12,470 nt of DNA from a virus (lineage: Duplodnaviria; Heunggongvirae; Uroviricota; Caudoviricetes): IMG/VR virus record IMGVR_UViG_2671180556_000003. One strand, given 5' to 3'. The notes under the pieces were generated by a model. That model had not been told where the DNA came from. It made no database searches and was given only the letters and a program-made list of their open reading frames with translations. Made by a program: the position numbers and the translations under genes. This document shows positions 97 through 1,646 of the stretch, piece after piece (position 1 is the first letter of the stretch; each line of letters begins with the position of its first letter).

Positions 97-121
97 TAAA
101 AAAGCCTTCACTGCGGAAGGC
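97..121 (-). terminator. Rho-independent terminator downstream of the small wHTH gene
   Basis: Seen in sequence: hairpin GCCTTC(104-109)/GAAGGC(116-121) with a 6-nt loop, followed on the minus strand by a T-run (plus-strand A-run 97-103). The stop codon of the 108..305 gene lies inside the stem. Confidence 0.5.
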
Positions 122-305
122 GTCTGTAACAACCGAACTGATAGTCTGCCAGACCCGCCATAACCAGCTGGGTCAGTATTAACTGGCAGCGTTCGCGTGA
201 AAGGTAAGTATTCTGCGCAATCTCCCCGACTGTCGCCGGTTCGGTGACGCTCAATTCATTAAACACCACTCTGGCGGTTTCGGTCATATCTTGCTGTTTT
301 AGCAT
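108..305 (-). CDS. Small hypothetical protein, possible winged-helix DNA-binding fold
   Basis: ORF 108..329 in the supplied track. ATG at 305 is preceded by AAGGGA (about 7 nt spacing), whereas ATG at 329 has no SD, so 305 is the preferred start (65 aa). The segment TVGEIAQNTYLSRERCQLILTQLVMAGL looks HTH-like. Function not recognised. Confidence 0.5.
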   Translation of the reverse strand: MLKQQDMTETARVVFNELSVTEPATVGEIAQNTYLSRERCQLILTQLVMAGLADYQFGCYRRLPQ

Positions 306-425
306 GTCTTTTTCCCTTCTGGTTAACATGACATACCAATAACTCTTGTCTAAAAAGCCAGCAAGATAAAAAGTCAGTATTCACGACCACCAGCGTGTTT
401 ACTGTACTGCACCAAGTTTACAGGT

Positions 426-452
426 ACAAAAAACCCGCTCAGTGGCGGGTTT
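426..452 (-). terminator. Rho-independent terminator downstream of the AT-rich orphan gene
   Basis: Seen in sequence: stem AAAACCCGC(429-438)/GCGGGTTT(445-452) with loop TCAGTG; on the minus strand the hairpin is followed by TTTTTTGT (plus 426-433). Lies about 125 nt past the stop of the 582..1199 CDS. Confidence 0.6.
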
Positions 453-581
453 AAGTTGTGTGGCGAAGTAACCACTCTTAACACACTAATAGCATTTTTG
501 TTATAACACAAGTAGCTCATTCAGTATTTTTAGAATCTTGACTTTCTTAAGCACGGCGAACTCTGAATACCAAACATAAAA

Positions 582-1199
582 TCAATTATCTTCCAGGCCG
601 GATGCTATCAACGAAAGCCTCTCAAAAAACGCTGTAGCAGCCTTGTCCAAAGTTGAATAAGTACTGTATTCTCCGTGTTCGGGACCAACCACTACCCATG
701 GTCGTCTTTTTGGGATTCGGGACTTCTCAGAAATCACTGTTCCAGATATACCAATATCAATTGTTACACCTGTTATTATTTTCTCTTCATCTCTTTCCCT
801 GAACTCAATTGCCATAAATGCCGTTTTTTTTCGTTTCCCGTTTTTAAAAAAATCAAATAAAGCAAAGCGATGCTCATTAAAATCAACACCCCATCGTCCT
901 TCAGGATAAAGGGCATGAAAGTTGTCATTTACGCTCTGCATCGTCTCATAAGCTTTAACTTCTAAATCTCCATAGTGCATAGATACCGCGCAGGAGTCAC
1001 TGGGTAACTGTATTTTCCCAAGATTGAAAACCTTTACTGCTCCAGAACTATGGCATCTTGCCCGCAATTTATCCCCATTTATACTAATCGGAGAAATATT
1101 CCTTAATGTTCCGGGCTGGCTCCCTCCTAAGTAAACGACTGTTAAAGATTGCTTATTTTCAATTGCATCAACTAATACATGCTCTACATTTTTATCCAT
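582..1199 (-). CDS. Hypothetical protein, AT-rich orphan (moron-like) gene downstream of Q; function unknown
   Basis: ORF 582..1226 in the track. ATG at 1199 is preceded by GGAGGT at 5-6 nt, while ATG at 1226 has no SD, giving 205 aa (MDKNVEHVLVDAIENK...). The region is visibly AT-rich compared with the flanking Q and nin genes. No signal peptide or TM segment is obvious, and I recognise no family. Confidence 0.65.
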   Translation of the reverse strand: MDKNVEHVLVDAIENKQSLTVVYLGGSQPGTLRNISPISINGDKLRARCHSSGAVKVFNLGKIQLPSDSCAVSMHYGDLEVKAYETMQSVNDNFHALYPEGRWGVDFNEHRFALFDFFKNGKRKKTAFMAIEFRERDEEKIITGVTIDIGISGTVISEKSRIPKRRPWVVVGPEHGEYSTYSTLDKAATAFFERLSLIASGLEDN

Positions 1200-1200
1200 A

Positions 1201-1237
1201 ATAACCTCCCAATGAACAGGTATCATCAGGAGGTTAT
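1201..1237 (-). promoter_or_regulatory. Inverted repeat predicted to sequester the SD of the 582..1199 gene in an mRNA hairpin
   Basis: Seen in sequence: plus 1201-1209 ATAACCTCC and plus 1229-1237 GGAGGTTAT are perfect 9-bp reverse complements separated by 19 nt. On the mRNA (minus strand) the upstream arm AUAACCUCC pairs with the SD-containing arm GGAGGUUAU that sits immediately 5' of the AUG. Confidence 0.4.
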
Positions 1238-1274
1238 AATAAAATATGATTATTTACTTTGATTGAATTTATTA

Positions 1275-1646
1275 CTATATGTAACAATCAATTTCTAAAG
1301 ATACCCCCAACATTGCCAGACAACCGTCAATAAACCCTTCAGCTTTCTGCAGTCTGATAACAACCTGATTAAGTGATATCCCCAGTTTTACCCCCAACAC
1401 CCGTAATGTAACCCCATACACATAATACATTTCCAGTAATTCGTATTGATACGGTTCCTTTTTCTTAAGAACTGTCATCGCAGAGCTAATGATCAGGCCA
1501 TCGTCATCGCTACATTGCGGGCGGGATTTTACTTTCGAAGGAATTAATCCCTTAAAACCTGCAGCAACAGATGACCATTCCACATCCTCGTGATTATTTG
1601 CCACCCATGCCCCCCAACGTTCAAGAACCATTTGAATATCACGCAT
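1275..1646 (-). CDS. Q: Late-gene antitermination protein Q (QuuD/Q82-type family)
   Basis: ORF 1275..1661 in the track; position 1661 is a TTG codon. ATG at 1646 is preceded by GGAG at 7 nt. N-terminus MRDIQMVLERWGAWVANNHEDV... closely matches my recollection of E. coli DLP12 QuuD (MRDIQMVLERWGAW...). It sits at the 3' end of the nin region, as expected. Confidence 0.85.
   Translation of the reverse strand: MRDIQMVLERWGAWVANNHEDVEWSSVAAGFKGLIPSKVKSRPQCSDDDGLIISSAMTVLKKKEPYQYELLEMYYVYGVTLRVLGVKLGISLNQVVIRLQKAEGFIDGCLAMLGVSLEIDCYI

What the first reader, a model, noticed from the sequence alone, without database searches (positions are those of the whole stretch)
426..1275. AT-rich orphan gene inserted just downstream of Q, with an RBS-sequestering hairpin and its own terminator
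The 205-aa ORF (582..1199) has clearly lower GC than the flanking phage genes and occupies the slot downstream of Q where lambdoid phages carry morons such as toxins or host-fitness and exclusion genes. I recognise no family for it. A perfect 9-bp anti-SD/SD pairing (plus 1201-1209 with 1229-1237) would occlude its ribosome-binding site, which suggests translation is kept off until some trigger. A strong intrinsic terminator (426-452) insulates it from what follows. This is a plausible single-gene defence, toxin or exclusion module of unknown type.
Basis: partly seen in the sequence, partly recalled or inferred. Interest (0 to 1): 0.8.

Follow-up and report, generated by a model that had tools for sequence, protein, structure and literature searches.

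The report
Prophage WYL-domain cargo gene beside Q
The "orphan" gene encodes a probable single-stranded-DNA sensor of the WYL type with no DNA-binding or enzyme part, from a large unstudied family found in prophages and bacterial defence islands, and it sits between a phage late-gene regulator and that regulator's own promoter.

Summary
There is a 205-aa ORF (1199→582, minus strand), low GC, a hairpin that pairs the ribosome-binding site, and a terminator at 452-426.

2. The terminator is not the gene's own. It belongs to a promoter-leader-terminator cassette shared by prophages that carry other cargo in this slot. The sequence upstream of the cassette's -10 changes with the Q allele. I read the cassette as Q's late promoter and tR'.

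3. The low-GC block includes the 3' half of Q. Q and the ORF have diverged together (dS about 0.8 for both).

The hairpin is conserved in a 72%-identical orthologue, but covariation is not statistically significant.

Function is inferred only. Distant relatives lie beside prophage repressors and in defence islands, and the family is almost absent from isolated phages. I therefore favour an ssDNA-sensing exclusion or defence role (about 0.4). An ssDNA "alarm decoy" is the main rival.

The parts
1275..1646 (-). Q antiterminator gene (123 aa) of the Q21 family. Its 3' half (from about 1485) belongs to the same low-GC mosaic block as the ORF.
   Evidence: Pfam PF06530 1.3e-47. Phmmer to Q21 structures 6p18/6jnx E 5.6e-10. 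The Q 3' half and the ORF occur together in all 52 E. coli genomes that match.
1198..1241 (-). RBS-sequestering hairpin. The 5' arm (about 1241-1223) holds the anti-SD CCUCC. The 3' arm (1215-1198) holds the SD GGGAGG (1210-1205) and part of the AUG (1199-1197). The -10-like TATTAT at 1241-1236 overlaps the 5' arm.
   Evidence: Conserved in the 72% orthologue. 93% of pair cells are standard pairs against 34-60% in slid controls, but the shuffle control is not exceeded.
582..1199 (-). CDS of the 205-aa WYL-family protein (WP_000360285.1).
   Evidence: dN/dS 0.22 against the orthologue in L056. phrog_8498 E 2.9e-126. Family of at least 954 clusters.
1008..1193 (-). WYL domain (aa 3-64): N-terminal helix plus Sm/SH3-like barrel. 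Y23, S27, R33, R46, K56, F58 and K62 are candidate single-stranded nucleic-acid contacts.
585..944 (-). C-terminal alpha-beta5-alpha domain (aa 86-205) of unknown function. Conserved motifs GW, FKNGK..K and RPW. A low-confidence variable insert lies at aa 134-165.
483..511 (-). PR'-like promoter: -35 TTGTGT (511-506), 17-nt spacer, -10 TAGTGT (488-483). The palindrome TGTTATAACA (508-499) is a candidate Q-binding element.
   Evidence: T, A and T of the -10 are invariant in five lineages whose upstream sequence otherwise differs (A3). The upstream sequence changes with the Q helix-turn-helix allele (A4). Palindrome. No transcript data.
453..482 (-). Conserved leader GTTAAGAGTGGTTACTTCGCCACACAACTT between the promoter and the terminator.
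   Evidence: Nearly invariant in five lineages that carry four different cargos.
426..452 (-). Intrinsic terminator, read here as tR' of the late operon and not the ORF's own terminator.
   Evidence: Fold. Shared at up to 100% identity with Stx2c phages, mEp460, Ayreon, cdtI and PhiR40_1, which lack the ORF. Annotated as a terminator in Ayreon.
108..329 (-). Context only: 73-aa winged-helix gene, the first gene after the terminator. DNA methylase, holin, lysozyme and Rz follow beyond the window end.

Best explanation
WHAT IT IS (shown).
- The ORF is a real gene under purifying selection.
- Its N-terminus is a WYL (Sm/SH3-like) ligand-sensing barrel. It keeps the residues with which DriD and CapW hold single-stranded DNA.
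- The WYL domain is joined to a ~120-aa alpha-beta5-alpha domain with no helix-turn-helix and no conserved catalytic-type residues.
- It belongs to a large uncharacterised family of stand-alone ~195-aa proteins. These are carried as single-gene cargo in prophages, satellites and defence islands.

WHERE IT SITS (well supported by comparison).
- It lies in a variable cargo slot between a Q21-family antiterminator gene and that Q's own late-promoter cassette (PR'-like promoter, 30-nt leader, terminator 452-426).
- The terminator is therefore the phage's tR'.
- The gene travels locked between Q and its cognate binding site.

HOW IT IS EXPRESSED (inferred).
- No terminator separates it from Q and no good sigma-70 promoter precedes it. 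It is probably the tail of the Q (early-right) transcript.
- On that RNA a 14-17 bp hairpin buries the SD and AUG and holds translation low.
- A weak promoter whose -10 (TATTAT; TATAAT in 12 natural variants) overlaps the 5' arm could give a short mRNA that lacks the anti-SD. That mRNA would be translatable in the lysogen.

WHAT IT DOES (inferred; my best guess).
- It is a prophage-borne exclusion or abortive-infection type protein.
- Its WYL pocket binds single-stranded DNA (or RNA) that appears when a phage replicates or DNA is damaged.
- The signal passes through the C-terminal domain, probably by a dimer rearrangement as in DriD/CapW, to an unknown protein or nucleic-acid target.
For: Gene reality:
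- dN/dS 0.22 overall and 0.14 in the WYL domain.

WYL identity:
- Profile against PDB E 1.3e-4. hhalign to CapW 92.9%. 40 of 109 members hit Pfam WYL.

Ligand pocket:
- DriD Tyr168, Ser172 and Arg178 align with invariant Y23, S27 and R33 (PMC9186387).
- CapW R184 and R200 align with R46 and K62. Invariant K56 aligns with CapW R194, which the paper does not list as a contact (PMC11662680).

Family size and architecture:
- 954 clusters, mostly 187-210 aa.

Slot and cassette:
-.
- The Q homologue of Q21, with the Q cassette architecture as described in doi 10.1101/651190.

Co-inheritance:
- dS is 0.80 for Q and 0.83 for the ORF.

Hairpin:
-.

Defence-type contexts of relatives:
- Directly after cI-like repressors (L063, L064, L071).
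- Alone within a prophage immunity region, between two oppositely oriented genes (L076).
- In a repressor-membrane protein-X-integrase operon (pENTAS02).
- Beside the integrase, facing the LexA-like repressor (phage PY3).
- Next to Mrr-nSTAND and AAA_13 genes (L072), HD and OLD-like genes (L075), and AAA/DUF262/NERD genes (L003).
- Sources.

Distribution:
- Only 2 of 50,697 isolated phage genomes carry a relative.
Against: - There is no experimental datum on any family member. Literature searches found none.
- PADLOC gives no hit beyond generic WYL models.
- No effector or toxin domain is visible and no conserved acidic or His residues. How binding would stop a phage is unknown.
- In this prophage the gene lies in the lytic early-right transcription unit with no convincing promoter of its own. 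That fits lysogen-expressed defence poorly.
- The ligand is inferred from aligned residues only. DriD Arg176 is not conserved (T31).
- Hairpin covariation is not significant: 297 of 500 shuffles reach the observed score.
- The PR' assignment rests on comparative anatomy. The -35 is poor in two lineages and no sigma-dependent pause element was identified.
Confidence: 0.4

Rival explanations
1. Counter-defence decoy. The protein is the sensor half of a WYL regulator with no DNA-binding domain. Made together with Q when the prophage is induced, it soaks up the short ssDNA by-products that would otherwise switch on WYL-controlled host immunity (CapW-CBASS, BrxR-BREX). Alternatively it forms dead heterodimers with those regulators.
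For: - There is no HTH, and the ssDNA-pocket residues are kept.
- The gene is co-transcribed with Q in the lytic programme, with no own promoter found.
- CapW-driven CBASS cuts lambda yield about 100-fold on prophage induction through WYL-ssDNA sensing (PMC11662680), so a lambdoid phage has a motive.
- Foldseek local alignments to the DriD WYL+WCX fragment run 125-143 columns, beyond the barrel.
Against: - Relatives sit in chromosomal defence islands and directly behind prophage repressors, which are lysogen-expressed positions.
- The family is nearly absent from isolated, mostly virulent, phages, where anti-defence genes are common.
- A sponge needs abundance, yet the hairpin throttles translation.
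- hhalign finds no WCX homology.
Confidence: 0.18
2. Regulator of the phage's own development. It acts as an ssDNA sensor that reports DNA damage or the state of phage replication. It then tunes induction, the Q-dependent late switch or lysis timing through protein-protein contacts, for example as an anti-repressor where it sits beside non-cleavable repressors.
For: - Long co-inheritance with Q (equal dS; always together).
- In other elements it is directly adjacent to the immunity repressor.
- BRCT fusion in pENTAS02 (Pfam 2.2e-8).
- Known WYL proteins are regulators that respond to DNA damage (PMC9186387, PMC11662680).
Against: - Linkage to Q is explained more simply by hitch-hiking between Q and its binding site. 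The same slot holds unrelated cargo in sister prophages that work without it.
- Members also occur in non-phage chromosomal islands.
Confidence: 0.12
3. An autonomous moron (own regulation, own terminator) encoding a toxin. Its translation is kept fully off by the hairpin until a specific trigger opens it.
For: The hairpin is real and conserved. The gene is AT-rich. The slot is variable.
Against: - The terminator is shared backbone.
- No promoter was found.
- The low-GC block includes part of Q.
- No toxin-like domain or catalytic residues are present.
- No trigger-responsive element such as a riboswitch was found; Rfam gave nothing above threshold.
Confidence: 0.08

Closest known systems
wHTH-WYL-WCX transcription regulators (CapW, BrxR, DriD, PafBC)
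   Different: There is no winged-helix DNA-binding domain, so it cannot act as a repressor or activator by itself. The WYL domain is at the N-terminus. The C-terminal domain shows no sequence homology to WCX and only ambiguous structural similarity. The protein is a stand-alone 205 aa.
WYL1, the accessory protein of type VI-D CRISPR-Cas13d
   Different: WYL1 has an N-terminal ribbon-helix-helix domain and is encoded next to Cas13d. The family here has no conserved neighbour.
Lambdoid morons and immunity-region exclusion genes (lambda rexAB behind cI, stx behind PR'/tR', nmpC behind quuD in DLP12)
   Same: It is variable accessory cargo near Q. Relatives lie directly behind the repressor gene as rexAB does.
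   Different: Here the gene lies upstream of the late promoter, between Q and its binding site, not downstream as stx does. It lacks its own terminator and shows no clear promoter.
Translation control by RBS hairpins that depends on where the transcript starts (T4 lysozyme gene e, from my own knowledge)
   Same: The anti-SD arm lies upstream of the SD, and a -10-like hexamer overlaps the 5' arm. Transcripts starting there would lack the anti-SD and be translatable, whereas read-through RNA would be silent.
   Different: No transcript start has been mapped. The putative promoter is weak: a 3/6 -35 in the window, and TGAACA-16-TACAGT in the orthologue.
Q21 antitermination cassette (Q gene, PR', pause element, terminator)
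   Same: Q is a homologue of Q21. A promoter-like element, a short conserved leader and an intrinsic terminator precede the late genes.
   Different: In the textbook cassette PR' follows Q directly (doi 10.1101/651190). Here 0.6-1.5 kb of cargo is interposed. The candidate binding elements are inverted repeats rather than the direct repeat of Q21.

Membership tests
WYL domain (Pfam PF13280) | Sequence match to the WYL profile | tested here: met
   This protein alone scores E 0.0085, 16.5 bits, below the gathering score of 21.8. However, 40 of 109 family members match, best 4.8e-8. The family profile hits DriD at E 1.3e-4, and hhalign to CapW gives 92.9%, E 3.8e-7.
WYL domain (Pfam PF13280) | Sm/SH3-like five-stranded barrel fold | tested here: met
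WYL domain (Pfam PF13280) | Binds a single-stranded nucleic-acid ligand in the basic pocket | not testable with these tools
   Only indirect evidence: Y23, S27 and R33 align with DriD Tyr168, Ser172 and Arg178, and R46 and K62 align with CapW R184 and R200. DriD Arg176 is not conserved.
wHTH-WYL-WCX regulators (CapW/BrxR/DriD/PafBC) | N-terminal winged helix-turn-helix DNA-binding domain | tested here: not met
   The WYL domain starts at residue 3. No HTH family was found by Pfam or NCBIfam, and there are no helical DNA-binding elements in the model.
wHTH-WYL-WCX regulators (CapW/BrxR/DriD/PafBC) | C-terminal WCX dimerisation domain | tested here: inconclusive
Known anti-phage defence systems (PADLOC-DB v2.0) | Match to a model of a described or candidate system | tested here: not met
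   Only weak hits to CRISPR-associated WYL models (E 0.0014 and 0.0066).
Moron (autonomous promoter-gene-terminator unit) | Own terminator | tested here: not met
   Terminator 452-426 and its leader are shared by prophages with other cargo or none of this kind.
Moron (autonomous promoter-gene-terminator unit) | Own promoter | tested here: inconclusive
   No minus-strand sigma-70 match lies upstream of the ATG in the scan. TATTAT at 1241-1236 (TATAAT in 12 loci; TACAGT in the orthologue) has a weak -35.
Moron (autonomous promoter-gene-terminator unit) | Deviant base composition and variable presence at a fixed site | tested here: met
   GC is 39.6% against 48%. The slot holds four other cargos. 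The deviant block also includes the 3' half of Q.
Q21-type late regulatory cassette | Q homologue, followed by promoter, pause element and terminator ahead of the late genes | tested here: inconclusive
   Q homologue is met. Terminator ahead of the methylase-holin-lysozyme genes is met. The promoter is supported by an invariant TAnnnT and by co-variation of upstream sequence with the Q HTH allele. The pause element was not identified, and there are no transcript data.

The most novel reading that the evidence does not exclude
The protein is a phage-made 'alarm silencer'. It is an HTH-less copy of the ssDNA-sensing half of bacterial WYL immune regulators. Produced with Q at prophage induction, it captures the ssDNA fragments that would otherwise derepress CBASS, BREX and other WYL-gated defences. 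It may also poison those regulators by heterodimerising with them. This would be the first counter-defence aimed at the transcriptional alarm rather than at an effector.
Probability: 0.15. Interest if true: 0.85.

Novelty: new variant of a known kind. Interest (0 to 1): 0.58.

Why it matters
- WYL domains are currently understood as the ssDNA-sensing switch of transcription factors that gate anti-phage systems. A widespread family with no DNA-binding or enzymatic part (at least 954 clusters at 50% identity) implies an output we do not know. This family sits next to prophage repressors and in defence islands. The output could be direct exclusion, signalling to a partner, or sequestration of the alarm signal.
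- The member described here is in E. coli prophages, so plating assays, ssDNA-binding assays and existing CapW/BrxR reporters could test it quickly.
- The locus also shows a cargo slot wedged between an antiterminator gene and its cognate binding site. Any gene placed there is inherited with the Q specificity pair.
- The RBS hairpin may distinguish read-through transcripts from locally initiated ones.

Tried and rejected
- Pfam, NCBIfam, PHROGs and PADLOC on the single protein gave only sub-threshold WYL hits and an unannotated PHROG.
- The word-indexed homology search found just 9 relatives. The exhaustive profile search was needed.
The 5-sequence alignment worked.
- The Gifsy-1/RtcR paper that mentions WYL was unrelated.
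- K-12 yafY is not a WYL regulator. Authentic CapW was taken from strain EcPF14 instead.
- Other cargos in the slot have no Pfam or PADLOC identity, so calling the slot a defence hotspot could not be backed by known systems.
- Rfam found nothing above threshold in 1-2000.
- Hairpin covariation was counted and is not significant.
- Literature and supplement searches for the accession, for phage-encoded WYL proteins and for defence screens found no characterisation.
- The upstream in-frame ATG at 1226 was rejected because it is out of frame in the orthologue.
- Translational coupling to Q was rejected. The Q stop (1277-1275) lies more than 30 nt from the stem.
- An RNA-thermometer reading was judged unlikely for a stem of -18 to -23 kcal/mol.
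Full report
**Orientation**

All relevant genes read on the minus strand. The window is an E. coli lambdoid prophage, 100% identical over 300-1700 to strain E189.

The gene order is: DUF968/HNH gene, Q, the 205-aa ORF, terminator, a 73-aa winged-helix gene, DNA methylase, holin, lysozyme, Rz, terminase.

**Check of the observation**

- The ORF (1199→582) is as described. GGGAGG lies at 1210-1205, five bases before the ATG, and RefSeq annotates the same CDS.
- GC is 39.6% (GC3 32%), against 48% for the window and 52-56% just beyond Q.
- The exact 9-bp pairing 1237-1229 with 1209-1201 is the core of a 14-17 bp stem that also reaches the AUG. ΔG is -23.3 kcal/mol, z -3.3.
- The hairpin plus U-run at 452-426 folds as a terminator (z -2.6). 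Its homologue is annotated as a terminator in phage Ayreon. The simple consensus scan did not list it.

All four physical features are therefore real. What fails are the labels 'orphan', 'inserted downstream of Q' and 'its own terminator'.

**The protein**

- *Single-sequence searches.* They give only a sub-threshold WYL hit at aa 8-64 (Pfam E 0.0085) and an unannotated PHROG.
- *Family size.* An exhaustive profile search finds 954 clusters at 50% identity with E ≤ 1e-3, and 191 with E ≤ 1e-30. Nearly all are 187-210 aa and match end to end.
- *WYL by sequence.* Of 109 diverse members, 40 match Pfam WYL, best 4.8e-8. The family profile hits DriD in the PDB at E 1.3e-4. hhalign to authentic E. 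coli CapW gives 92.9% probability over CapW 136-208, the WYL domain, and stops there.
- *Ligand pocket.* The alignment puts invariant Y23, S27 and R33 on DriD Tyr168, Ser172 and Arg178, which hydrogen-bond ssDNA phosphates (PMC9186387). R46 and K62 fall on CapW R184 and R200, residues lining its ssDNA pocket (PMC11662680). Invariant K56 aligns with CapW R194.
- *What is missing.* There is no helix-turn-helix. The protein is soluble with pI 6.6, and the WYL part has pI 9.4.
- *Fusions elsewhere in the family.* These add an N-terminal BRCT domain (Pfam 2.2e-8), transmembrane helices, zinc ribbons or an unknown ~170-aa extension. None adds an obvious enzyme.

**The locus**

- *Block boundaries.* Similarity to phage PhiR40_1 covers only window 300-500 and 1485-1700. 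A different gene on the opposite strand lies between those segments.
- *Linkage to Q.* All 52 of 5,426 complete E. coli genomes that match window 1100-1480 (the start of the ORF plus the low-GC 3' half of Q) match it essentially in full. The exchanged block therefore runs from the HTH-coding half of Q to about position 500.
- *The orthologous block.* A 72%-identical orthologue (IMG/VR loci L055-L062, and E. coli 2014C-4587) has the same Q-ORF arrangement. dS is 0.80 for Q and 0.83 for the ORF, and the ORF has dN/dS 0.22. The pair has travelled together for a long time.
- *The shared cassette.* Five lineages were aligned: the window, the orthologue, PhiR40_1, and two E. coli prophages whose slot holds 308+182-aa and 339-aa genes on the opposite strand.
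  - They share a nearly invariant GTTAAGAGTGGTTACTTCGCCACACAACTTAAACC followed by the terminator.
  - It is immediately preceded by a hexamer whose T, A and final T are invariant: TAGTGT, TAATCT, TATGCT, TATCGT, TACTGT.
- *Co-variation with Q.* Upstream of that -10-like hexamer the sequence is lineage-specific. It changes whenever the HTH region of Q changes, and it is the same (TTGTGTTATAACAAAAA) in the two lineages that share the Q HTH. Each lineage has its own inverted repeat there. In the window this is TGTTATAACA at 508-499.
- *Phages with unrelated Q.* Phages with an unrelated 250-aa Q (mEp460, Ayreon, Stx2 phages) share only the terminator and what follows. Ayreon, mEp460 and the Stx2k phage carry a different 138-141-aa gene before it.
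- *Reading.* Q is a homologue of Q21 (E 5.6e-10). The Q cassette is defined as Q gene, PR', pause element, terminator, late genes (doi 10.1101/651190). I therefore read 511-426 as PR' with its Q-binding element, leader and tR'.

The ORF thus lies between Q and Q's own promoter. That explains why it hitch-hikes with the Q/binding-site pair. It also means the gene is not Q-dependent, unlike stx. This reading is comparative inference. No pause element was pinned down, and the -35 is poor in two lineages.

**Expression**

- No terminator lies between the Q stop (1277-1275) and the ORF.
- The promoter scan finds no usable minus-strand promoter.
- The most economical reading is read-through from Q, ending at tR'.

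The hairpin is kept in the orthologue (-19.4 kcal/mol, z -2.7). Natural variants mostly keep or improve pairing:

- U→C turns G·U into G-C in 6 of the closely related IMG/VR loci, and the orthologue carries the same change.
- T1238A closes a T·T mismatch in 12 loci.
- One UA→CG double change occurs.
- Two changes break a pair.

Formally, 93% of pair cells are standard pairs against 34-60% when partners are slid. The shuffle control is not exceeded (297 of 500), so covariation proves nothing.

A -10-like TATTAT (1241-1236) overlaps the 5' arm. It is TATAAT in those 12 loci and TACAGT, preceded by TGAACA-16, in the orthologue. A transcript started there would lack the anti-SD. This offers a testable two-transcript logic: read-through RNA silent, local RNA translated. 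It is speculation.

**Function**

Contexts of distant relatives were sampled in about 18 loci. There is no conserved partner gene. Recurrent settings are:

- directly after a cI-like repressor in prophage immunity regions (L063, L064, L071);
- alone between two oppositely oriented genes in a prophage immunity region (L076);
- in a repressor-membrane protein-X-integrase operon of a P2-like plasmid-prophage (pENTAS02);
- next to the integrase of phage PY3, facing the LexA-like repressor;
- chromosomal islands with Mrr-nSTAND3 and AAA_13 (L072), HD and OLD-like TOPRIM ATPase (L075), and AAA/DUF262/NERD (L003);
- beside terminase or Rha genes (L065, L074, L078).

Only 2 of 50,697 isolated phage genomes carry a relative.

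This pattern matches host- or prophage-side conflict genes better than phage counter-defence. I therefore commit, at about 0.4, to an ssDNA-sensing exclusion or abortive-infection role with an unknown output through the C-terminal domain.

The weak points are the absence of any effector-like feature and the gene's wiring into the lytic early operon here.

The main rival (about 0.18) is an ssDNA alarm decoy. CapW-controlled CBASS suppresses lambda induction about 100-fold through WYL-ssDNA sensing (PMC11662680). An HTH-less WYL protein made with Q could blunt that. A role in the phage's own developmental switch is third (about 0.12).

**Novelty and verdict**

No paper in the searchable library describes this family or a phage-encoded HTH-less WYL protein. 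PADLOC has no model for it.

It is a new architectural variant of a known sensor domain, placed in a cargo slot that I did not find described. It is not a categorically new system. Interest is moderate to high because the family is large, untested and experimentally accessible in E. coli.

Noticed in passing
window 1213-1240 (+ strand): The palindromic hairpin DNA also reads as a good sigma-70 promoter on the opposite strand (TGAACA-16-TATAAT, 10 of 12). It would fire antisense into Q, reminiscent of lambda PaQ.
   Followed up: no
window 499-508; L066, L067 and L002 at the equivalent place: Each Q allele has its own inverted repeat over the -35/spacer of the PR'-like promoter: TGTTATAACA here, GCGTACGC, GCGGTCCGC, and TTTAC-n4-GTAAA. 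These are candidate Q-binding elements. They are palindromic, unlike the direct repeat reported for Q21.
   Followed up: partly
window 426-482: If the PR' reading is right, lysogens should make a constitutive ~50-nt leader RNA ending at the terminator. This is the same kind of short PR'-tR' transcript as lambda 6S RNA.
   Followed up: no
window 324-460 (+ strand): Weak Rfam match to the enterobacterial sRNA STnc130 (30.1 bits, gathering score 55, E 0.053), antisense to the tR'-to-wHTH-gene interval.
   Followed up: no
window 108-329 (-): A 73-aa winged-helix protein (phrog_331, weak TrmB/MarR-like hits) is the first gene after the terminator and has its own terminator at 121-104. Its 5' end and the region upstream of it (window 300-451) are among the segments that find matches in about 1,960 of 5,426 E. 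coli genomes, including Stx2 phages. Its function is unknown.
   Followed up: no
L066 3271-4732; L067 3326-4345; L002 5277-5723; L010 2730-3146: The same slot holds other uncharacterised cargo, with no Pfam or PADLOC identity. In prophages with the Q21-family Q these are 308+182 aa, 339 aa and 148 aa, all on the opposite strand. In mEp460, which has an unrelated Q, a 138-aa gene lies before the same terminator on the same strand. They are possible further conflict genes.
   Followed up: partly
L030 (IMG/VR), equivalent of window ~1211: One natural copy has an IS1 end inserted in the 3' arm of the hairpin, just before the Shine-Dalgarno sequence. This separates the gene from its leader.
   Followed up: no
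L069 3725-4588 (Enterobacter soli pENTAS02): A family member is fused to an N-terminal BRCT domain. It sits in a repressor-membrane protein-X-integrase operon. BRCT domains are typically linked to DNA-damage and DNA-end biology.
   Followed up: partly
L068 2006-3115 (Pseudoalteromonas phage PY3) and P0068: Longer family members (356-369 aa; they appear to correspond to the 374-position profile phrog_31886) carry a conserved ~170-aa C-terminal extension with no Pfam match.
   Followed up: no
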